DNA of 64,000 bases from Anaerovorax odorimutans (GCA_016841185.1 JAENZQ010000013.1:6341-70340); one strand, 5' to 3'; positions 1,204-30,314 are shown, numbered from the stretch's first letter. Program-made: numbers and translations. The notes: generated from the letters alone by a model not told the origin.

Positions 1204-1959
1204 GTGATTTTTTTGAGAAAATACAGATTTAATAAAAAGGATGGGACAAAATCTATGCTCATTATTTTTTTAATGATCACGATAGGGGCTGTTATAATTG
1301 GATATTTTGGGACAAGATACTTTTTATATCCTATATTCATTAAGGGAACGACTGCTGAAGTGACCGGCATTGAAGAAAATCAGAATCAAGACACTGCAAC
1401 TCAATCAAACAATTCGGTTCAGAATTCCACTGTGAGTGAAGAATCAGAAGAACCTGAAGAAAAAAGACATACTTTTTATATCTATCATGTTCAAATGGGA
1501 AATTTCAGTTCTGAGAAAAATGCAGAATTACTTATTGACAGTCTTGAAGAAAACGATATTTATGCTTATGTATTGAAAGAAAACGGGTTGAAAGTAGTAA
1601 CAGCTCCTCTTGCGGATTATGGTCAAGCGGAGGTTTTGAAAAATAACCTATTGACTTATGCAAAAGATGCTTTTATTCTTAAGAGGCAAGTACAAGTTGA
1701 GAATACTTCTGTACAAACAACAATAACCAACATTCTTAATGATTTGAACGAGGCTCGTTCACAGCCGGACAGCAGTCGGTGGATCAATATATTAAAAGAT
1801 GCTTTTCAGGATGGATTAGGGGATTCGCAGATGGAGCAGGAGACCCTGCAAGTTTTTCAAAATATTTACGATGAGGTGAATCAGATTGACACATCGGAAA
1901 ATAATTTGTTTGATATAGAAAAAAATATTATAATAATGATTGAAGAAATTATAAGTTAG
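1204..1959 (+). CDS. Membrane-anchored SPOR-domain-like protein
   Basis: GGAGGTG RBS precedes GTG 1204 and in-frame TTG 1213. One TM helix (MLIIFLMITIGAVIIGYF) and a Ser/Glu-rich linker are followed by YHVQMGNFSSEKNAELLIDSL...VVTAPLADYGQAEVLKNNL, which resembles a SPOR peptidoglycan-binding repeat. Confidence 0.55.
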   Translation: MIFLRKYRFNKKDGTKSMLIIFLMITIGAVIIGYFGTRYFLYPIFIKGTTAEVTGIEENQNQDTATQSNNSVQNSTVSEESEEPEEKRHTFYIYHVQMGNFSSEKNAELLIDSLEENDIYAYVLKENGLKVVTAPLADYGQAEVLKNNLLTYAKDAFILKRQVQVENTSVQTTITNILNDLNEARSQPDSSRWINILKDAFQDGLGDSQMEQETLQVFQNIYDEVNQIDTSENNLFDIEKNIIIMIEEIIS

Positions 1960-1972
1960 TCGGAGGGCAGAC

Positions 1973-2329
1973 ATGAAATTACTGGAAATAAAGGAATTGC
2001 TGGATTGTGCGTGCATTACTGGCGAAGAATATATGGATGAATATGATGTAGAATATGCTTTCGGATGTGATTTGATGAGTGATGTTCTTGCATTTTCTAA
2101 TCATAAAACATTACTTCTTACAGGGCTGGTCAATCCGCAAGTCATCCGGACAGCAGAAATGATGGACATTGCGGCTATCGTATTTGTAAGAGGTAAGAGG
2201 CCGGACGATAAAACCATTGAATTAGCTGAGAAATATAATAAGATATTACTCTGCACGCGGAATATCCTTTATACTTCCTGTGGAATCTTATATAAACATG
2301 GACTGAAAGGAGTCACCATAAATGAGTGA
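1973..2329 (+). CDS. DRTGG-domain protein (copy 1)
   Basis: 118-aa ORF with a GGAGGG RBS. KTLLLTGLVNPQVIRTAEMMDIAAIVFVRGKRP resembles stand-alone DRTGG domains. Its stop overlaps the next start (ATGAGTGA). Confidence 0.65.
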   Translation: MKLLEIKELLDCACITGEEYMDEYDVEYAFGCDLMSDVLAFSNHKTLLLTGLVNPQVIRTAEMMDIAAIVFVRGKRPDDKTIELAEKYNKILLCTRNILYTSCGILYKHGLKGVTINE

Positions 2330-2786
2330 TTACCCCGGGTTTTTAAAATACGATTATGAAGTGGAGCGATACGATTTTACAAGAGCAGGTGAGGCATCCA
2401 GTGCTATAAAAGCCCGGTTAAAAAAGCTTGGTTTGGATACAGATTTGGTTCGCAGAATTGCTGTTGCGTCTTACGAGTCGGAGATCAATATTATTATACA
2501 TTCTTTTGGGGGCTCTCTGACTTTGTATATATCGACTGATAAAATTATTATTGTGGCAAAGGATAGTGGCCCCGGAATAGATGATATTGAATTGGCAATG
2601 CAGGAGGGTTACACAACAGCTTCCGACAAGGCACGTGAATATGGTTTTGGAGCAGGTATGGGACTTCCCAATATAAAAAGGTATTGTGACCGCCTGGAAA
2701 TTGATTCTTCAAAGGGACATGCTACAACGATTGTTATGACTTTTATAATTACGGATATGGATGGTGAACAGAATGAAAATGGATGA
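2322..2786 (+). CDS. Small GHKL-type ATP-binding protein (RsbW/SpoIIAB-like anti-sigma Ser/Thr kinase fold)
   Basis: 154 aa with N-box ESEINIIIHS, G1 DSGPGI and G2 GFGAGMGLPN. No DHp/His-phosphotransfer, sensor or receiver domain is present. Confidence 0.7.
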   Translation: MSDYPGFLKYDYEVERYDFTRAGEASSAIKARLKKLGLDTDLVRRIAVASYESEINIIIHSFGGSLTLYISTDKIIIVAKDSGPGIDDIELAMQEGYTTASDKAREYGFGAGMGLPNIKRYCDRLEIDSSKGHATTIVMTFIITDMDGEQNENG

Positions 2787-3105
2787 ATTAATAAATGATA
2801 ACCAATTCAAACAACTTACTTTTTTGGAGTTGGACAAACAGATAAGAGGCTTATATTATGGCGACTTGCTGAGCTGGGTCATGTCACATGCAAAGGAAGG
2901 AGATGCATGGATTACAGTTCAGACTCATGTCAATATCGTTGCCGTAGCCTCGTTGCTTAATTTAAGCTGTATCATTATTCCTGAAAACAGTACTGTTGAA
3001 CAGGCTACCGTTGATAAAGCAAATGAGATGAATATTCCGATTTTTTCTACAGAACTGAATGCTTATGAGATTTTTAAACGATATTATCAAAAAGATCTGC
3101 AATAG
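2761..3105 (+). CDS. DRTGG-domain protein (copy 2)
   Basis: 114 aa, overlapping the upstream gene by 26 nt. AWITVQTHVNIVAVASLLNLSCIIIPEN...IPIFSTELNAYE is paralogous in layout to the 1973-2329 product. Start choice is uncertain (in-frame ATGs at 2761, 2773, 2779). Confidence 0.6.
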   Translation: MVNRMKMDELINDNQFKQLTFLELDKQIRGLYYGDLLSWVMSHAKEGDAWITVQTHVNIVAVASLLNLSCIIIPENSTVEQATVDKANEMNIPIFSTELNAYEIFKRYYQKDLQ

Positions 3106-3111
3106 TCAGGG

Positions 3112-3846
3112 ATGAAAAAAATGAAATTATCTTATGATTTACATATTCATACGGCATTATCGCCATGTGCTTCAGATGATATGACGCCGAATAATATTGT
3201 TAATATGGCTGCTATCAAAGGGCTGGACATCATCGGTATTACGGATCATAACAGTACGGAGAATTGTGCCTCTGTCATCAAGGCTGCGAAGAATAAAGAG
3301 TTGCTTGTTGTCCCCGGAGTAGAGCTTCAGACCAGTGAGGAAGTTCATCTCCTTTGTTTTTTTGAGAACCTTTTGAATTTAAGAGAATTTCAGGATGTGA
3401 TTGACTCATCAATGGTAAAAGGCAAAAATATATCGGAAATTTTTGGAAATCAATTGATCATGGATGAAAAAGACCATGTTGTCGGGCAAAAACAGCATAT
3501 GCTCCTGACTTCTTCCGGATTGTCTCTTAACCGGGCCGTTGAACTTGTCTCTGAAATGGGAGGCGTTGTTGTACCGGCGCATATAGAAAGAAAAAGTTAT
3601 TCAATCATTACGAATCTGGGGTTTGTTCCACCGGAACTGAATTTGTCCTACCTGGAAATATATCAACCGGGAAACTTACCTGATTTAACTGCAAAGTTTG
3701 ACTATCTTAAGAACTACAAATATCTTTTTAATTCGGATGCTCATGAGTTGGGATGTATTTCGGAGCCGGAAAGATTCATAGAATGCAAATCCAAATCTCT
3801 CTATGAAGTCATTAATACAATAAAAAATGGGAGGCGGCATAAATGA
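3112..3846 (+). CDS. PHP-domain metal-dependent phosphoesterase
   Basis: 244 aa. DLHIHTALSPCASD, ITDHNS, VVPAHIER and NSDAHE give the His/Asp ligand pattern of the PHP (polymerase/histidinol phosphatase) fold. Confidence 0.8.
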   Translation: MKKMKLSYDLHIHTALSPCASDDMTPNNIVNMAAIKGLDIIGITDHNSTENCASVIKAAKNKELLVVPGVELQTSEEVHLLCFFENLLNLREFQDVIDSSMVKGKNISEIFGNQLIMDEKDHVVGQKQHMLLTSSGLSLNRAVELVSEMGGVVVPAHIERKSYSIITNLGFVPPELNLSYLEIYQPGNLPDLTAKFDYLKNYKYLFNSDAHELGCISEPERFIECKSKSLYEVINTIKNGRRHK

Positions 3847-4388
3847 AAGAACTGTCTCTGCATATTCTGGATATTGTCCAGAACAGTATCGCAGCAAAGG
3901 CGACCCAAATAGAAATTATCATTTGTGAAGATACACAAAAAAACATTTTGTCTATTGATATTAGTGATAATGGTACAGGTATGGACAAAGCAACGCTTCA
4001 GAAAGTGACAGATCCTTTCTGGACATCCAGAACTACAAGAAAAGTAGGACTGGGCATTCCCCTTTTTAAGGCTGCAGCAGAAAGATGTTCAGGACATTTT
4101 AAAATACGCTCTGAAGCAGGTGAAGGAACAGAAATAATCGCTGAATTTGTACGAAACCATATAGACAGAGCCCCCATGGGAGATATTGCAGAAACCATTT
4201 CATTATTGATTCTGACCAATGAAGGAATCGATTTTAAATATACGTATAGATTCAACGGACGTACGTATGAGCTTAATACGAAAAAAATCAAAGAAGTCAT
4301 TGGAGATATGCCGATACAACATCTGGACGTTATAGAATGGATAAAGAAAGATATCCGGCAGGGAATTGAAGAAATAACTCAGGAATGA
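3843..4388 (+). CDS. Small GHKL-type ATP-binding protein (histidine-kinase-like ATPase domain only)
   Basis: 181 aa with N-box LDIVQNSIAA, G1 DNGTGM and G2 GLGIPLFK. It has no DHp, sensor or receiver domain. Its start overlaps the PHP stop (ATGA). Confidence 0.7.
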   Translation: MKELSLHILDIVQNSIAAKATQIEIIICEDTQKNILSIDISDNGTGMDKATLQKVTDPFWTSRTTRKVGLGIPLFKAAAERCSGHFKIRSEAGEGTEIIAEFVRNHIDRAPMGDIAETISLLILTNEGIDFKYTYRFNGRTYELNTKKIKEVIGDMPIQHLDVIEWIKKDIRQGIEEITQE

Positions 4389-4547
4389 TTCGTTAAATAT
4401 TTAACCTTAGTAATTCCTAATCGCACCATGTAACACGGCATAAATATTCCACAGAAAAAATTTTTTTCAAGTATGTTAAATTATTATCAAGATAAAATGA
4501 TATAAATAAGCAGAGAACAGAAGTGTTTTGAATGAAATTCAAATATT

Positions 4548-4572
4548 GTGGACCTTACACGTCCATTTTTTT
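4548..4572 (+). terminator. Weak intrinsic terminator after the DRTGG/ATPase/PHP operon
   Basis: Stem (G)TGGAC / GTCCA(T) at 4548-4553 and 4561-4566, with a 7-nt loop, followed by T7 (4566-4572). Confidence 0.35.
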
Positions 4573-4698
4573 CTGTAGTTCTTTCATCTTTTGACTTTTA
4601 TTACTTTTTTTCGAGCAAAAATTTAACATAAATATGTTAAAAAATATGCAAAAAAGCATTGCTTTTTATATCAAAAAGGAGTATTCTAAAAGTAAGAA

Positions 4699-4716
4699 AT
4701 GTTAAAATATTAACGA
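4699..4716 (+). promoter_or_regulatory. Rex-type operator candidate overlapping the acyl-CoA dehydrogenase/etf promoter
   Basis: aTGTTAAaataTTAACga compared with the clostridial Rex consensus TTGTTAA-N4-TTAACAA, as recalled. It lies immediately upstream of a TATAAT at 4722-4727. Confidence 0.5.
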
Positions 4717-6793: not shown

Positions 6794-8110
6794 ATGGCAA
6801 TAAATGTTATTGAAGATAAATGTAAAGGCTGTAAATTATGTATAAAGGCTTGCCCCTTCGAAGCGATAGAAATGGTCGGGAAATTAGCGGTTATCAACGA
6901 TAAATGTACCGGCTGTAATGCATGTATCCCGGTCTGTCCATTCGATGCTATTGAAAAGACTGCTGAAGAGGATGGCCCTGTAGATCTTTCCGAATATAAG
7001 GATGTGTGGGTATTTGCAGAGCAGAGGCAAGGCAAACTCATGAATGTAGCACTTGAATTGATCGGCGAAGGACAAAGATTATCCAGAGAGCTGGATGATG
7101 CAAAGGTATGTGCGCTGATCGTCGGAAACAAAGTTGAACATCTATCGAAGGAATGCTTTGAGCATGGCGCGGATGCGGTCTATTTGATTGAAGATGATTT
7201 ATTAGAAAACTTTACCACGGATGGTTATACAAAGGTTATAGTAGATGCTATCAAGGAATATAAACCTGAAATTGTTCTGTATGGTGCAACACACATCGGC
7301 AGAGATCTGGCTCCGAGGGTTGCGGCAAGATTGAATACCGGACTTACCGCAGACTGTACCAGATTGGATGTTAAAGTATCCAGCTATATTGATTATGCTG
7401 TCAAAAATACGACTCTGGATACTTCCACCTTAGATCCGGATTCGGATGACAAGGGATTGAAGCAGACCCGTCCTGCATTTGGAGGGAATCTGATGGCAAC
7501 TATTATTTGCCCAAGAACCAGGCCTCAGATGGCAACAGTAAGACCCGGGGTTATGCAAAAAATAGAAAAAATCCAGGGGGCAGCCGGAGAGGTTATTGAA
7601 GTTAAGCCTCAGATTGCAAAGTCTGATATTCGGACAGAAATCATAGATATTGTAAAATCGGCTAAAGAGATTGTTTCCTTGACGGATGCAAAAATCATAT
7701 GTTCCGGCGGCAGAGGCCTGGGGGATGCTTCGGGCTTTGAATTGATCAAGAAACTCGCCGACAAGGTTGGCGGAGTGGTTGGTTCTTCGAGGGCTGCTGT
7801 AGATGCCGGATGGATAGATCATTCACATCAGGTTGGGCAGACGGGAACAACCGTAAAGCCAAATATCTATTTTGCCTGCGGCATCTCAGGTGCGATTCAG
7901 CATTTAGCAGGAATGCAGACATCGGATATTATTATTGCTATCAATAAAGATCCGGATGCGCCGATCTTTGAAGTTGCAGATTATGGCATTGTCGGAGATT
8001 TGTATAAAGTAATTCCCGAGCTTATTGAAGAGTGGGATAATGCTGAGGAACTGTACAGCGCATCCTTATATCACAAAGAAGAAATAACTGAAGAGGAAGC
8101 AGCTTCTTAA
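6794..8110 (+). CDS. etfA: Electron transfer flavoprotein alpha subunit with an N-terminal 2x[4Fe-4S] ferredoxin domain
   Basis: 438 aa. The N-terminal ~60 aa carry [12 protein letters not shown] and [12 protein letters not shown]. The remainder is EtfA-like ([23 protein letters not shown]). Confidence 0.9.
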
Positions 8111-8218: not shown

Positions 8219-9097
8219 TCAAAGGAAATCACCAATTATTTCTATGACAATAACGGAAACACCTTTGCTAAAAACAAAGGTACAGAAATTATAACAGATG
8301 GAAGTATAACTGTAGAAATTTCCTTGAATGCACCGGGAACTGAGCTGTATTCCTATGACGGCTTTAACCGAATGATTCAGGCAGAAAATGGCAATGGCAT
8401 TCATTCATACAACTATCGCCCTGACGGTTTACGATTAAGCAAGACGATAAATGGCATAACGACGACTCATATATGGGACGGTCAGAGCATTGCATTGGAG
8501 CTTGATGGCAGCAGCAATGTCGTTGACAGCTACATCCGTGGTATCGGGCTGATTGAAAGTGATCAAAATGGCTGGTATCTATACAATGGACATGGTGATG
8601 TGGTACAATTAACCAATAATACAGGTGCTGTAACGAAAGAATATGAGTATGATGCTTTTGGAAATGAAAAAAATATAGATGTATCAGACAACAACCCATA
8701 CCGTTATTGTGGTGAGTACTTTGACAAAGAAACGGGAACCATCTATCTGAGAGCAAGATACTATGATCCTGTAATGGGTAGATTTATTAATGAAGATACC
8801 TATGAAGGCAGTATAGATAACCCATTAAGCTTGAACCTTTATACCTATTGCTATAATAATCCTATCCGATACATTGACCCGACTGGACATGTGGTAACTG
8901 AATGGGATAAGAAAAATTGTAGTAAAAAACAACAAAGGGCTATAGATAAAGCAACAAAAGACTACAATGATGCTAAAGCCAGGGGCGATGCAAAAGGGAT
9001 GGCAGATGCTCATAAAGCAGCTGAGGATGCTCGCCAGAAAAACAGGTCAAAAGACGAAATAGGCAGTGCCAGCGGATATACATTACAAAGTAGATAG
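8219..9097 (+). pseudogene. N-terminally truncated Rhs/YD-repeat protein fragment (Rhs-associated core end plus a short C-terminal tail)
   Basis: The frame is open from 8192, inside the hairpin, with no credible start or RBS. It contains YD-type repeats (YFYDNNGN, YSYDGFNR, YNYRPDGLRLSK, YEYDAFGN) and the core end PYRYCGEYFDKETG...RARYYDPVMGRFINEDT...NNPIRYIDPTGH. The tail continues in another frame (YKVDSKGKAKLNKHDS...) up to 9187. Confidence 0.75.
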
Positions 9098-9187
9098 TAA
9101 AGGTAAAGCTAAATTAAACAAGCACGACTCAAAGGCACTAAATAAGAGTAAAAGCAGCGGTTCAACCACATTAAATGATTCCGACTA

Positions 9188-9261
9188 TATGTCAACAGGG
9201 ACGTATGTCAACAGGGACGGTTCTTTTTGACATATGTCAACAGGGACGGTTCTTTTTGACA
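9188..9261 (+). repeat. Tandem hairpin repeats at the boundary of the transposase remnant
   Basis: TATGTCAACAGGGACG at 9188-9203 is followed by two exact 29-nt copies of TATGTCAACAGGGACGGTTCTTTTTGACA (9204-9232 and 9233-9261). Each copy has an ATGTCAA/TTGACAT inverted repeat. Confidence 0.85.
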
Positions 9262-9989: not shown

Positions 9990-10025
9990 GAGTGTATTGT
10001 TACATATGTCGAAAGGATGATTTTT

Positions 10026-10610
10026 TTGGAGCTTCTTAAAAGACGAATTCTAACGGAAGGAAGAGTTGAAGGCAAGGATGTCGTAAAGGTAGATTCTTTT
10101 TTAAACCATCAGATGGACGTGGTTTTGTTAAATGAAATCGGGAAGGAGTTCCAATCAAGGTTTGTAAACCAAACTGTTACAAAAATATTAACCATTGAAG
10201 CCTCCGGGATAGGAGTTGCATGTATTACCGCTCAATATTTTAACGTTCCGGTTGTTTTCGCAAAAAAAATGGAATCCAGAAATCTGGACAAGGAAGTATT
10301 TGAAAGCAAAGTCACTTCTTATACCAAAGGGATCGAATACGGCATCAAAGTGTCTAAAAGGTACCTTGGACCGGAGGATCATGTTCTGATCATTGATGAT
10401 TTTTTAGCAAACGGACAGGCTATTGCAGGTTTGAGAAATATTGTAAAACAGGCAGGTGCTCATTTGACGGGGGTAGGAATCGTCATTGAAAAAAGTTTCC
10501 AAAATGGCGGAAAAGTTATTCGAGATGAAGGGATTCATCTTGAGTCTCTGGCCATTATAAAAGAAATAGAAAACAATAAAATTATTTTTAAAGAAGAGGG
10601 GAGAGAATAA
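10026..10610 (+). CDS. xpt: Xanthine phosphoribosyltransferase
   Basis: ELLKRRILTEGRVEGKDVVKVDSFLNHQMD matches the Xpt N-terminal pattern, and VLIIDDFLANGQA is the PRPP loop. TTG 10026 is better spaced from the AAAGGA RBS than ATG 10017. Confidence 0.85.
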   Translation: MELLKRRILTEGRVEGKDVVKVDSFLNHQMDVVLLNEIGKEFQSRFVNQTVTKILTIEASGIGVACITAQYFNVPVVFAKKMESRNLDKEVFESKVTSYTKGIEYGIKVSKRYLGPEDHVLIIDDFLANGQAIAGLRNIVKQAGAHLTGVGIVIEKSFQNGGKVIRDEGIHLESLAIIKEIENNKIIFKEEGRE

Positions 10611-28655: not shown

Positions 28656-30314
28656 ATGGTTAAAAAAATAATTGTTTTTATATTCATTCTAATTATTACA
28701 TTTTCATTAAATCTGTTTTCATTTGCCGAGGATAGTTCTTATCAGTTTATAAAAATCGGTCTTAGAAGCGGTAGTAGTGCGGTTGCAACTACATCACTAA
28801 CATCCGACAAAGGATTTATTTTCGGGTATTATTCTAATAATGAATTTATTCCTTTATTTGATCTTAATAACAGAAAAGAGGTATGTGTCAGAAAAGACAG
28901 TTATTATCTGAATATGGAAGACTATTTTTTCGAATATGATTTTGATGATAGAAAAGATTCAGGAAACGCCGATATAACAGGTCCCATCCACATTCAGTTA
29001 GGTGCGAGTTATGCTTCAAAGACTGAAGCCCTTGACTTTGCAGATTCCATAAAGGCTCTTGGGATCGAGCCTTATCTGGCATTGGAAGGTAAATGGAAAG
29101 TATGGGTCGGTGCATTTACTACTTATGATAATGCGGAAAAATATTTTGATGAATTGAAATCGTTATTTTCTAATATAGATATGACCGTTATTTCAAAGAA
29201 CAGCCGAAGAATACAGGTAACGGATCAATCGGGGAAAATTATATTTATCTATACGCCTTCTTATGGAGATTATGTCTTCCAGCCAAAGGAAGATGCTTTG
29301 ATTGCTATGGACAATAAATTATTCAGAGGGGAAATTATTTTTAAAAATGCTTCAAATGGAAATTTAACCGTTATAAATCAATTGAAGATGGATGAGTATT
29401 TATATGGGGTCCTGCCAAAAGAGATATCTGTGACCGCACCGGTTGAAGCTTTAAAAGCACAAGCTGTTGCAGCAAGAAATTATGCAGTGGTAAACAGAAA
29501 CAAACACAGGGAGGAAGGGTTTGATTTATGCTCAACCACTCATTGCCAGTCTTATGGCGGCTTTTCTGCTGAAAATCAAAGTACAAGTCAAGCCGTAGAT
29601 GAGACTAAAGGCTTGATTCTTGCCTATAACGGAATTCCCATATCCACATTTTACCATATGGACAGCGGAGGGCATACTGAAAACAGTGAGAATGTATGGG
29701 GGCAGGAAATAGGTTATATAAGAGGTGTAACGGATGATTTCGGTGAAACTTATACATGGGAACAGCACTTATCTAAAAATGAAATAGTAAAAGCATTGAA
29801 TCTGGCAGGTTATTCCCCGGGTGAAATCAGAAACATATATATAAACGGTCATTCTGAATTTGGAAGTGTATCGCAGCTTATTATCCAGGGTTCGGAAAAT
29901 ACTGTCACTCTTGAAAAAGATTATATACGAAAAGTTTTAGGATATAATATTATTAAATCTTTAAAGTTTTCTATAATGAACGATAACACCGTTAATCTGA
30001 TGGGGAAAAATTCTGATATAAAGACTGAATTAATTGGATGTTTTACTATAAACGAAGAAAACAATATTTCCCGACTCCGAAATTCAAGGAATTATGTATC
30101 AAATGGAAACAGGATTTCTTTAATTGAACGTGATGTTGTTTCTGATCCTGACACATATGTTTTTTTGGGAACGGGATATGGGCATGCACTTGGTATGAGC
30201 CAGAAAGGAGCTATTGCTATGGCTCGATCCGGTTATACGTTTAAAGAAATATTGTATCATTATTATACCGGTGTTGAATTAATATCTACTTATGGAGAAG
30301 AAAATGCGGATTGA
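28656..30314 (+). CDS. SpoIID/LytB-domain protein with a SPOR-like insert
   Basis: 552 aa with a signal/TM N-terminus. [21 protein letters not shown] and [13 protein letters not shown] are typical of the SpoIID/LytB domain. Confidence 0.8.

What the first reader, a model, noticed from the sequence alone, without database searches (positions are those of the whole stretch)
1973..4388. Translationally coupled five-gene DRTGG / GHKL-ATPase / DRTGG / PHP / GHKL-ATPase module of unknown function
Seen: five short genes with overlapping or near-abutting boundaries (ATGAGTGA, a 26-nt overlap, a 6-nt gap, ATGA). They form two paralogous pairs (two ~115-aa DRTGG proteins and two GHKL ATPase-only proteins of 154 and 181 aa) plus a PHP phosphoesterase. 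Neither ATPase has a DHp/phospho-His domain, a sensor domain or a receiver. No protein in the module has a DNA-binding domain. Inference: this looks like a kinase/phosphatase partner-switching or nucleotide-sensing device with an unknown output. From memory, this gene set usually sits beside NuoE/NuoF-type electron-bifurcating [FeFe]-hydrogenase operons in Thermoanaerobacterales/Clostridia, and it has never been functionally dissected. Here no hydrogenase is adjacent. The neighbour is a Bcd/EtfBA operon, another flavin-based bifurcating system, which hints at a general redox or electron-bifurcation regulatory role.
Basis: partly seen in the sequence, partly recalled or inferred. Interest (0 to 1): 0.7.

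Follow-up and report, generated by a model that had tools for sequence, protein, structure and literature searches.

The report
Hydrogen-sensor gene cassette missing its sensor
These five small genes are the helper genes that in most Clostridia surround a putative hydrogen-sensing hydrogenase, but here the sensor gene has been cleanly deleted and the helpers are still well conserved, so they must do something useful without it.

Summary
The five translationally coupled genes are real and the domain calls hold: DRTGG-like D1, SpoIIAB-like GHKL ATPase A1, DRTGG D2, PHP phosphoesterase, and GHKL ATPase A2. In 61 of 70 informative species genomes a sixth gene sits between A1 and D2. It encodes the M2e/group D putative H2-sensing [FeFe]-hydrogenase HydS. 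A2 normally lies inside the hydC-A2-hydD-hydB-hydA bifurcating-hydrogenase operon, where it corresponds to TTE0891.

The window carries a sensor-less, hydrogenase-less derivative. hydS was lost at least three times independently, and only where the adjacent hydrogenase genes are also gone. All five remaining genes are under strong purifying selection (dN/dS 0.06–0.11) and keep their catalytic motifs.

Rare D1::A1 and D1::HydS fusions point to D1 as the adaptor. A2 models as a MutL-like GHKL ATPase, not a kinase. The PHP protein resembles nucleotide and nucleic-acid phosphoesterases, not protein phosphatases.

The Bcd-Etf neighbour is a separate transcription unit with its own Rex-type box, and the adjacency is specific to this clade. 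Sister lineages have rnf at that position.

Function remains unproven. The likeliest reading is an ATP-driven protein switch acting on ferredoxin/NAD(H) redox complexes. This is a new variant of a known but uncharacterised cassette, of moderate interest.

The parts
1204..1959 (+). SPOR-domain membrane protein gene. Probably the first gene of the operon; no functional link to the module has been established.
   Evidence: Pfam SPOR 24.9 bits. It ends 13 nt before g1, with a GGAGGG ribosome-binding site at 1962-1967. The SPOR-to-D1 gap has a median of 17 nt, and 83% of 23 loci have a gap of 30 nt or less. dN/dS is 0.21 against L008.
1973..2329 (+). g1 = D1, a standalone DRTGG-like protein of 118 aa. 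Candidate adaptor for A1 and, where present, HydS.
   Evidence: 60% identical to Caminicella D1. hhalign to the D2 family gives 98.8%, and the profile matches PDB 3L2B at E=6e-5. All residues that are at least 90% conserved are kept except A12C, including DLMSDV, LLLTGL, RTAEM and VFVRGK.P. D1::A1 fusions exist (L003, P0417, P0494) and one D1::HydS fusion (P0464). dN/dS is 0.056.
2322..2786 (+). g2 = A1, a SpoIIAB/RsbW-like GHKL ATPase (HATPase_c_2), 154 aa.
   Evidence: Pfam and NCBIfam hits. Matches PDB anti-sigma F factor structures at E about 3e-4. The N box (YE.E.N..IH), G1 (D.GPGI) and G2 (GFGAGMGLPN) are intact. dN/dS is 0.075. It has a clade-specific acidic C-terminal tail that overlaps the D2 start.
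2773..2786 (+). A1/D2 junction, the site from which hydS is missing (deletion scar).
   Evidence: 61 of 70 informative loci carry a 413-470-aa Fer4+Fe_hyd_lg_C+FeS gene here. No remnant was detected in any HydS-less locus.
2773..3105 (+). g3 = D2, a DRTGG protein. The longest ORF starts at 2761; homology favours ATG 2773.
   Evidence: Pfam DRTGG 27.9 bits. 64% identical to Caminicella D2. The conserved DLLS.VM, W.T.Q.H.N and AVA motifs are kept. The D2-to-PHP gap has a median of 0 nt over 79 loci. dN/dS is 0.090.
3121..3846 (+). g4 = PHP-family metal-dependent phosphoesterase. The longest ORF starts at 3112.
   Evidence: Pfam PHP 39 bits. Metal-ligand motifs are invariant: HxH 8/10, DH 42/43, E68, H76, H154, D206/H208. 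The AF2 model has pLDDT 95.1. The nearest solved folds are EndoQ, BAD_1165, RNase AM, TM0559 and Cv1693. dN/dS is 0.111.
3843..4388 (+). g5 = A2, a GHKL ATPase with a ~75-aa C-terminal second domain. It is the orthologue of TTE0891, which lies inside hydC-tte0891-hydD-hydB-hydA.
   Evidence: HATPase_c 56.8 bits and HATPase_c_3 39.5 bits. 54-57% identical to the L001 and L003 A2 proteins. N, G1 and G2 boxes are invariant, as is HIDRxPxG at 106-113. The AF2 model has pLDDT 89.4. Full-length Foldseek matches are to MutL, PMS1, MLH1 and Topo VI-B. The NuoE-to-A2 median gap is 3 nt and the A2-to-fdx median gap is -4 nt over 45 loci. dN/dS is 0.096.
4548..4576 (+). Terminator-like hairpin followed by a T-run, downstream of g5. 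Probable end of the operon.
   Evidence: Consensus scan only: 6-bp stem with 3 G-C pairs. Weak evidence.

Best explanation
WHAT IT IS (confidence about 0.9). The cluster is the orthologue of the accessory genes that in most Clostridia flank the M2e/group D putative H2-sensing [FeFe]-hydrogenase HydS and the electron-bifurcating hydrogenase HydABC. The canonical layout is D1-A1-HydS-D2-PHP, then a gap, then hydC(NuoE)-A2-hydD(fdx)-hydB(NuoF)-hydA. In this lineage hydS and the hydrogenase structural genes have been cleanly deleted. What remains is SPOR-D1-A1-D2-PHP-A2, kept as a tightly coupled operon under purifying selection.

HOW IT MOST LIKELY WORKS (inferred, about 0.35). It is a cytoplasmic, ATP-driven protein-protein switch with no transcription-factor output of its own.
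- D1 is an adaptor that binds the SpoIIAB-like ATPase A1. Where HydS exists, D1 also docks to HydS and so couples the H2/redox state to A1.
- D2 pairs with the PHP phosphoesterase, which resets the switch by hydrolysing a phospho- or nucleotidyl-linkage or a nucleotide ligand.
- A2 is a MutL-like dimerising GHKL ATPase. It is the output element and acts on ferredoxin/NAD(H)-coupling complexes: HydABC where present, otherwise Rnf or another such complex.
- In the sensor-less variant the input must be something else, such as ATP/ADP or another nucleotide sensed by the DRTGG or GHKL domains.
- The invariant Ser in the shared DL[ML]S motif of D1 (S36) and D2 is the candidate modification site.
For: Orthology and synteny:
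- Each window gene is the best match of the corresponding gene in six-gene loci, with 50-64% identity to Caminicella L001 and 39-54% to hydrogenase-linked L003.
- The upstream NlpC/P60-SPOR synteny is shared.

Census:
- At least 585 species genomes carry the PHP orthologue.
- 61 of 70 informative loci have HydS between A1 and D2.
- The sixth gene shows M2e/group D features: SSACP (no C299 equivalent), SPC (M353S), GLAC (M497L), and a C-terminal Cx2Cx4C...C motif (compared with PMC8163306).

Composite origin:
- Median gaps are -4 nt for D1 to A1, 14 for A1 to HydS, 6 for HydS to D2, and 0 for D2 to PHP.
- The PHP-to-NuoE gap has a median of 141 nt, and 0 of 44 loci have a gap of 30 nt or less.
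- The NuoE-to-A2 median is 3 nt and the A2-to-fdx median is -4 nt.

Retained function:
- dN/dS is 0.056-0.111 for all five genes at dS of about 1.
- All family-conserved residues and catalytic motifs are kept.
- hydS was lost 3-4 times independently in 100 of 100 bootstraps, and the other genes were kept each time.

Partnerships:
- Three independent D1::A1 fusions and one D1::HydS fusion.

Protein types:
- A1 resembles SpoIIAB.
- A2 models as a GHKL core plus a second domain, with full-length matches to MutL, PMS and Topo VI-B.
- No DNA-binding, DHp or receiver domains.
- A2 lies next to rnfC in 13 or more loci, including a lone A2 before rnf in Defluviitalea.
Against: - No biochemical or genetic data exist for any of the five proteins.
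- The PHP protein is closest to nucleic-acid and nucleotide phosphoesterases. No PHP-type protein phosphatase (CpsB/YwqE) appears in the top 50 structural matches, so protein dephosphorylation is not favoured by similarity.
- A2 looks like a GHL clamp rather than a kinase.
- There is no STAS partner, PP2C phosphatase or sigma factor in the window.
- Fusions are rare: 3-4 among about 1,170 D1 clusters. The single D1::HydS case could be a gene-calling artefact.
- I could not check whether hydS, hydA or hydEFG exist elsewhere in this genome, because only 64 kb is available.
- The adjacency of A2 to rnf may reflect conserved chromosomal synteny rather than function.
Confidence: 0.5

Rival explanations
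1. The proteins are assembly, maintenance or repair factors, not regulators. They would serve flavin/FeS NAD(H):ferredoxin oxidoreductase modules such as HydABC or Rnf. A2 would act as an Hsp90/MutL-like ATP-driven chaperone-clamp, and the PHP protein would process a nucleotide or cofactor-related phosphoester.
For: - A2 is translationally embedded between hydC and hydD.
- A2's fold resembles GHL ATPases rather than kinases.
- The PHP protein resembles nucleotide phosphoesterases such as the pAp phosphatase Cv1693 and RNase AM.
- The genes persist next to rnf when the hydrogenase genes are gone.
Against: - D1-A1-HydS-D2-PHP is a separate tightly coupled unit built around a hydrogenase with sensor-like properties (PMC8163306).
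- A1 is SpoIIAB-like, which is a regulatory family.
- From memory, purified Caldanaerobacter hydrogenase contains HydA-D only. PMC4694547 lists four subunits plus the 'hypothetical' Tte0891.
- In the window neither rnf nor hyd lies within 64 kb.
Confidence: 0.2
2. It is a nucleotide-signal device. The DRTGG proteins would bind an adenine-nucleotide-type ligand (as in CBS-DRTGG pyrophosphatases), the PHP protein would degrade that ligand, and the two GHKL ATPases would read out the energy state. No protein phosphorylation would be involved.
For: - D1 matches the DRTGG domain of the nucleotide-regulated CBS-pyrophosphatase 3L2B.
- The PHP protein's nearest folds include an AMP-bound pAp phosphatase and RNase AM.
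- The system works without HydS, so it needs another input.
Against: - There is no evidence that isolated DRTGG domains bind nucleotides.
- No cyclase or synthetase is linked to the cluster.
- The similarity to EndoQ and RNase AM is at fold level only, with 15-21% identity.
Confidence: 0.1
3. In this organism the module would specifically regulate the neighbouring Bcd-EtfBA flavin-based bifurcating system.
For: - The module lies next to bcd-etfBA in the window, L008/L011, L005 and L010.
- EtfA here carries an N-terminal 2x[4Fe-4S] domain.
- The hyd, rnf and bcd-etf systems all couple ferredoxin and NAD(H).
Against: - Only 1 of 70 census species shows this adjacency.
- In L006 a MarR gene and two ABC-transporter genes intervene.
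- There is a 421-nt gap with a terminator-like site.
- bcd has its own conserved promoter block and a conserved Rex-type box at 4699-4716.
- The nearest HydS-less relatives have rnf, not bcd, at that position.
Confidence: 0.08
4. The genes are a non-functional relic left behind after loss of the hydrogenase genes.
For: The sensor and all adjacent hydrogenase genes are gone.
Against: - dN/dS is 0.06-0.11 at dS of about 1.
- All reading frames are intact and translational coupling is rebuilt.
- All catalytic and family-conserved residues are kept.
- The same five genes are retained after 3-4 independent hydS losses.
Confidence: 0.03
5. It is an anti-phage defence or DNA-targeting system, combining an EndoQ-like PHP nuclease with a MutL/MORC-like GHKL ATPase.
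For: - Fold similarity of the PHP protein to EndoQ and of A2 to MutL and Topo VI-B.
- Weak NCBIfam hits to TrlF and Ppl over the PHP domain only.
Against: - No PADLOC hit for any of the six proteins.
- The cluster sits in a core housekeeping neighbourhood: recA in relatives, and ruvCAB, queA, tgt, secDF and relA in the window.
- It is vertically conserved, present in at least 585 species, and embedded in hydrogenase operons.
- It lacks the EndoQ Zn-ribbon and DNA-binding parts (241 aa against about 400).
Confidence: 0.02

Closest known systems
Gene cassette around the M2e/group D putative sensory [FeFe]-hydrogenase HydS (TamHydS of Thermoanaerobacter mathranii; Caldanaerobacter subterraneus hydC-tte0891-hydD-hydB-hydA region)
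   Same: D1, A1, D2, PHP and A2 are one-to-one orthologues in the same order and orientation (L060 is Caldanaerobacter). Land et al. (PMC8163306) note a histidine-kinase-like ATPase flanking TamHydS upstream of HydABC. PMC4694547 lists tte0891 inside the operon.
   Different: The window lacks hydS and lacks hydC, hydD, hydB and hydA. A2 is fused into the cassette by an ATGA overlap with PHP. The neighbours are a SPOR gene upstream and bcd-etf downstream. The cassette itself has no demonstrated function anywhere.
Group C HydS/HfsB systems (Ruminococcus albus HydS; Thermoanaerobacterium hfsABCD)
   Same: The same logic applies: a hydrogenase-like sensor encoded with small kinase- or phosphatase-type proteins and no DNA-binding output, affecting redox and fermentation balance (PMC5707799, PMC11837493).
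   Different: Group C sensors carry a PAS domain and pair with Ser/Thr kinase and PP2C-type phosphatase proteins. Here there is no PAS, no PP2C and no sensor at all. DRTGG, GHKL and PHP proteins are used instead.
Partner-switching modules (SpoIIAB-SpoIIAA-SpoIIE; RsbW-RsbV-RsbU)
   Same: A1 is a small HATPase_c_2 protein whose best matches are anti-sigma F and RsbW. It is paired, and sometimes fused, with a small ~115-aa partner, and a hydrolase is encoded nearby.
   Different: The partner is DRTGG-like, not STAS. The hydrolase is PHP, not PP2C. No sigma factor is linked. The A1 score against the SpoIIAB equivalog model is 55.6 bits against a cut-off of 135.
GHL ATPases (MutL/PMS/MLH1 N-terminal domain, Topo VI-B, MORC)
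   Same: The A2 model aligns over about 180-210 columns, covering the GHKL core plus a following alpha/beta domain (TMq 0.55-0.62). A2 also gets a HATPase_c_3 Pfam hit.
   Different: A2 is only 181 aa and its second domain is much smaller than a MutL transducer domain. Sequence identity is 14-22%. It has no DNA-related context.
PHP phosphoesterases EndoQ, RNase AM (YciV/TrpH), TM0559, and Cv1693 pAp phosphatase
   Same: The PHP barrel has a full set of metal ligands. These are the best sequence and structure matches.
   Different: g4 lacks the EndoQ Zn-ribbon and C-terminal domains. Identity is 15-21%. The substrate is unknown. It is always encoded directly after a DRTGG protein.

Membership tests
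HydS (M2e/group D)-associated accessory cassette | Orthologues of D1, A1, D2, PHP and A2 in conserved order | tested here: met
   Best blastp matches are 50-64% identical to L001 and 39-54% to L003. The order is identical in 70 loci.
HydS (M2e/group D)-associated accessory cassette | hydS (Fer4 + Fe_hyd_lg_C + C-terminal FeS) between A1 and D2 | tested here: not met
   g2 and g3 overlap. tblastn finds no HydS in the 64-kb window and no remnant at the junction.
HydS (M2e/group D)-associated accessory cassette | Adjacent bifurcating hydrogenase genes hydC, hydD, hydB and hydA | tested here: not met
   tblastn finds no NuoE, NuoF or HydA in the window apart from the Fer4 domain of EtfA.
Partner-switching module (SpoIIAB/RsbW type) | HATPase_c_2 anti-sigma/Ser-kinase protein | tested here: inconclusive
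   Pfam HATPase_c_2 scores 31.9 bits (cut-off 27.4). TIGR01925 scores 55.6 bits, below its 135 cut-off. PDB SpoIIAB matches at E about 3e-4.
Partner-switching module (SpoIIAB/RsbW type) | STAS-domain antagonist | tested here: not met
   No STAS hit in any module protein or in the window ORFs surveyed. The partner is DRTGG-like.
Partner-switching module (SpoIIAB/RsbW type) | PP2C (SpoIIE/RsbU) phosphatase and a cognate sigma factor | tested here: not met
   The only hydrolase is PHP. No sigma factor was found among the window ORFs scanned. Not every ORF in the window was scanned.
Two-component histidine kinase | DHp domain with a phospho-accepting His, plus a receiver partner | tested here: not met
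   No HisKA or receiver hits. The A2 model has no helical-hairpin DHp. The invariant H106 sits in a short turn after the last core strand.
GHL (MutL-type) ATPases, tested for A2 | Bergerat fold with N, G1 and G2 boxes | tested here: met
   Invariant N14, D42.G44.G46 and G69LG71. HATPase_c and HATPase_c_3 hits.
GHL (MutL-type) ATPases, tested for A2 | A second (transducer) domain supplying a basic residue to the gamma-phosphate on dimerisation | tested here: inconclusive
   Full-length Foldseek matches to MutL, PMS and Topo VI-B have TMq of only 0.55-0.62. The invariant R109 in HIDRxPxG is a candidate, but this was not tested.
PHP-type protein phosphatases (CpsB/YwqE) | PHP fold with metal ligands | tested here: met
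   Invariant HxH, DH, E, H, H and DxH. Model pLDDT 95.
PHP-type protein phosphatases (CpsB/YwqE) | Closest similarity to CpsB/YwqE rather than to other PHP subfamilies | tested here: not met
   The top sequence and fold matches are EndoQ, BAD_1165, RNase AM, TM0559, Cv1693 and polymerase PHP domains. No CpsB or YwqE appears in the top 50.
DRTGG domain (PF07085) | Score above Pfam's gathering threshold | tested here: met
   g3 scores 27.9 bits against a cut-off of 25.2. g1 scores only 16.7 bits but is linked by profile methods: hhalign 98.8% to the D2 family, and 3L2B at E=6e-5.

The most novel reading that the evidence does not exclude
The DRTGG/GHKL/PHP set would be an autonomous, ancient energy- or redox-state switch. 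HydS would be only one exchangeable input for it. Its output, through the MutL-like ATPase A2, would be direct post-translational control of ferredoxin:NAD(H)-coupling machines (HydABC, Rnf, possibly Bcd-Etf). On this reading the sensor-less operon in this window is the minimal core of a previously unrecognised regulatory system of anaerobic energy metabolism. It would also identify D1 as the long-sought signalling partner of group D sensory hydrogenases.
Probability: 0.25. Interest if true: 0.75.

Novelty: new variant of a known kind. Interest (0 to 1): 0.55.

Why it matters
Group D [FeFe]-hydrogenases are proposed H2 sensors. How they signal is an explicit open question: a 2026 paper (PMC13104023) calls identification of their interaction partners critical. 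This analysis does three things.

1. It defines the conserved partner set (D1, A1, D2, PHP, plus A2 in the hydrogenase operon).
2. It nominates D1 as the adaptor, based on natural fusions to both A1 and HydS.
3. It shows, through recurrent natural deletions, that the partner set is kept under selection without the sensor or the hydrogenase. It therefore has an HydS-independent role, probably in ferredoxin/NAD(H) redox control.

This makes the question directly testable. It is relevant to engineering H2 and ethanol yields in thermophilic Clostridia, where related hfs/hyd regulators already matter (PMC5707799).

Tried and rejected
1. **H-box idea.** The invariant HIDRxPxG motif of A2 resembles a histidine-kinase H-box (HELRTPL). 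I rejected it as a DHp equivalent because the AF2 model shows no helical hairpin, and the motif lies at the junction between the core and the second domain.

2. **Rex control of the module.** There is no Rex-type box upstream of the SPOR gene or g1. The only two matches with two or fewer mismatches in the window lie in the bcd leader. The window-wide count is not above chance (2 found against 1.17 expected). One box (4699-4716) is conserved in relatives.

3. **Defence system.** No PADLOC hits.

4. **Relic.** Rejected on dN/dS and motif conservation.

5. **SPOR::D1 fusion (P0388).** The linker is low-complexity and the normal D1 start Met is retained, so this is probably a read-through or gene-calling artefact. 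P0491 and P0505 look chimeric.

6. **Folding a natural D1::A1 fusion or a D1-A1 pair.** Not possible.

7. **Literature.** Searching 'DRTGG' with 'hydrogenase' gave two irrelevant papers. Csac_1862 turned out to be the ferredoxin subunit, not A2.

8. **Miscalls by my automated classifier.** It miscalled L044 (as HydS-less) and L054, L069 and L071 (as lacking hyd downstream) because of distance cut-offs. The counts reported were corrected against the gene-order listing.

Full report
**Observation.** Comparison with relatives suggests slightly later starts for g3 (ATG 2773, giving a 14-nt overlap) and g4 (ATG 3121, giving a 15-nt gap). This does not change the picture of a translationally coupled operon. 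Pfam supports HATPase_c/HATPase_c_2 for g2, DRTGG for g3, PHP for g4 and HATPase_c/HATPase_c_3 for g5. g1 scores below the DRTGG threshold (16.7 against 25.2 bits). However, a profile of the g1 family aligns end to end with the g3 family (hhalign 98.8%, E=1e-16, 15% identity) and matches the DRTGG domain of the Clostridium perfringens CBS-pyrophosphatase 3L2B (E=6e-5). No DHp, receiver, sensor or DNA-binding domain is present. The upstream SPOR-domain gene ends 13 nt before g1, with a good ribosome-binding site in between.

Gene neighbourhoods of relatives of g5 showed the same genes in the same order, but with a sixth gene between the first ATPase and the second DRTGG gene. This gene encodes a 413-470-aa protein with two [4Fe-4S] motifs, the [FeFe]-hydrogenase H-domain and a C-terminal Fe-S motif. 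Examples are Caminicella sporogenes L001 and Tepidanaerobacteraceae L003. In the Caldanaerobacter subterraneus copy (L060) the diagnostic residues match what Land et al. describe for the M2e/group D enzyme TamHydS. These are SSACP (no equivalent of the CpI proton-relay C299), SPC (M353 to S), GLAC (M497 to L), a C-terminal Cx2Cx4C...C motif and no PAS domain (PMC8163306). That paper proposes HydS as an H2 sensor, notes a flanking histidine-kinase-like ATPase and the downstream HydABC, and leaves signal transduction open. A paper from April 2026 still calls identification of the partners critical (PMC13104023).

**Orthology.** Each window gene is the reciprocal counterpart of the corresponding gene in these loci. 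Identity to Caminicella is 60% for g1, 57% for g2, 64% for g3, 50% for g4 and 57% for g5. Identity to the hydrogenase-linked L003 is 39-54%. tblastn finds no HydS, HydA, NuoE, NuoF, Rex or RnfC anywhere in the 64-kb window, apart from the ferredoxin domain of EtfA. The rest of the window is core housekeeping: ruvCAB, queA-tgt, secDF, relA, dtd, ispH and recN.

**Census.** I annotated the 80 loci that were returned against reference proteins. Of 70 loci where the A1/D2 junction is informative, 61 have hydS and 9 do not.
- The commonest layout is D1-A1-HydS-D2-PHP followed by hydC(NuoE)-A2-hydD(fdx)-hydB(NuoF)-hydA.
- A second layout has NuoE-A2-fdx-NuoF followed by rnf.
- A third has SPOR-D1-A1-HydS-D2-PHP-A2 followed by rnf.
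- Nine loci have the cassette alone, with neither A2 nor hyd genes downstream.
- All nine HydS-less loci are of the SPOR-linked type with A2 directly after PHP. That is 9 of 21 loci of this type, against 0 of 38 with NuoE downstream. Fisher's exact test gives p=2e-5, but the loci are not phylogenetically independent.
- Only one census species (L011, which is the same contig as L008) shares the window's bcd-etf neighbour.

**Composite origin.** D1 to A1, A1 to HydS, HydS to D2 and D2 to PHP are tightly coupled, with median gaps of -4, 14, 6 and 0 nt. PHP to NuoE is never tight: the median is 141 nt, and 0 of 44 loci have a gap of 30 nt or less. A2 is tightly embedded between NuoE and the ferredoxin gene, with medians of 3 and -4 nt. 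This is the natural order hydC-tte0891-hydD-hydB-hydA of the biochemically studied Caldanaerobacter enzyme, in which Tte0891 is still called a 'hypothetical protein' (PMC4694547). The window operon is therefore the sensor cassette without its sensor, plus the ATPase that normally sits in the hydrogenase structural operon.

**Is the remnant functional?** Yes, by every sequence test available.
- Against the closest relative (L008), dN/dS is 0.056 for g1, 0.075 for g2, 0.090 for g3, 0.111 for g4 and 0.096 for g5, at dS of 0.9-1.6.
- The window proteins keep essentially all residues that are at least 90% conserved across 72-80 family members. This includes the N, G1 and G2 boxes of both ATPases and all PHP metal ligands.
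- A neighbour-joining tree of concatenated A1+D2+PHP+A2 (56 taxa, 631 columns) places the HydS-less lineages in 3-4 separate, well-supported groups. All 100 bootstrap trees require 3-4 loss events, and none makes the HydS-less taxa monophyletic.
- No hydS remnant survives at any junction. In the window clade, A1 has gained an acidic tail that runs into the D2 start.

Repeated clean loss of the sensor with retention of the same five genes argues for a HydS-independent function.

**Clues to mechanism.**
- A1 is SpoIIAB/RsbW-like.
- D1 occurs naturally fused to A1 in three independent proteins (L003, P0417, P0494). It is fused once to HydS itself (P0464). These fusions nominate D1 as the adaptor between the sensor and the ATPase.
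- D1 and D2 share an invariant Ser in a DL[ML]S motif. This is a candidate modification site, but that is inference only.
- The A2 model is confident (pLDDT 89.4, pTM 0.86). Its full-length structural matches are the MutL, PMS1, MLH1 and PMS2 N-terminal domains and Topo VI-B, over about 200 columns with TMq 0.55-0.62. Histidine kinases align only over the ~105-residue ATPase core. An invariant HIDRxPxG motif lies at the domain junction.
- The PHP model (pLDDT 95.1) is closest to EndoQ, BAD_1165, RNase AM, TM0559 and the AMP-bound pAp phosphatase Cv1693. No CpsB/YwqE protein phosphatase is among the top 50 matches.

A plain kinase/phosphatase partner switch is therefore not the only reading. 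An ATP-driven clamp with a nucleotide- or phosphoester-hydrolysing reset is equally compatible with the evidence.

**The Bcd-Etf neighbour.**
- The 421-nt spacer contains a terminator-like hairpin.
- It also contains a promoter-like block and a Rex-type box (ATGTTAAAATATTAACGA, 4699-4716) that are conserved in L008 and L005. bcd-etfBA is therefore an independently regulated unit.
- In L006 a MarR gene and two ABC-transporter genes separate the module from bcd.
- The other HydS-less lineages have rnfCDGEAB downstream instead.

The bcd adjacency itself carries little weight.

**Rivals.** An assembly or maintenance role is the main alternative (confidence 0.2), followed by a nucleotide-signal device (0.1). 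The relic and defence readings are effectively excluded.

**Verdict.** The locus is a sensor-less, hydrogenase-less variant of the still-uncharacterised accessory cassette of group D sensory hydrogenases. Confidence in this identity is about 0.9, and in the proposed switch mechanism about 0.35.

Noticed in passing
window 1204-1959; L001, L006, L008, L014-L033 and others: A SPOR-domain membrane protein gene is tightly coupled upstream of D1. The median gap is 17 nt, and 83% of 23 loci have a gap of 30 nt or less. It is often preceded by an NlpC/P60-SH3 hydrolase gene. Why a septal peptidoglycan-binding protein should share an operon with a cytoplasmic ATPase/PHP cassette is unexplained.
   Followed up: partly
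window 4699-4716 (also 4473-4490 and 4390-4407): A Rex-type operator lies in the bcd leader, with a promoter-like block upstream. Both are conserved in L008 and L005. A palindrome, GTTAAATATTTAAC, sits immediately after the g5 stop codon and is also conserved in L008.
   Followed up: partly
window 6794-8110: EtfA carries an N-terminal 2x[4Fe-4S] ferredoxin domain (Pfam Fer4 at residues 3-56). From memory, the CarE subunit of caffeyl-CoA reductase-Etf has the same arrangement. The window protein was not compared with CarE here.
   Followed up: no
window 8324-9097, with a strong terminator on the minus strand at 8216-8187: This is an orphan ORF with RHS/YD-repeat-like sequence (…RYYDPVMGRFINEDTY…) and a short C-terminal tip. 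It is followed by small ORFs and may be a stranded RHS toxin fragment. No domain search was run.
   Followed up: no
L016, L018, L031, L051, L053, L067, L068, L075, L079, L084: In ten species NuoE-A2-fdx-NuoF is followed directly by rnfC, with no hydA in between. This looks like an NADH/ferredoxin module without its hydrogenase subunit, sitting next to Rnf.
   Followed up: no
L012 (Anaerosolibacter MAG) 9110-9207: This HydS-less locus also lacks D1. Only 96 nt separate the SPOR gene from A1, so the cassette can apparently be reduced further.
   Followed up: partly
L002 (Defluviitalea phaphyphila) 10001-10555: A lone A2 gene sits directly upstream of rnfCDGEAB, while the PHP orthologue (P0196) lies on a different contig. 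The A2-rnf adjacency therefore persists even when the cassette is elsewhere in the genome.
   Followed up: partly
window 28656-30314: A second SPOR-domain protein is encoded here, fused to a SpoIID domain. It lies between ruvB and queA.
   Followed up: no
L003 5572-6207: A Rex repressor gene lies immediately upstream of the D1::A1 fusion gene and overlaps it by 4 nt, in a hydrogenase-linked cassette. A published prediction also places a Rex site before the Thermoanaerobacterium 'PHP domain protein' Tsac_1856 (PMC5886521).
   Followed up: no
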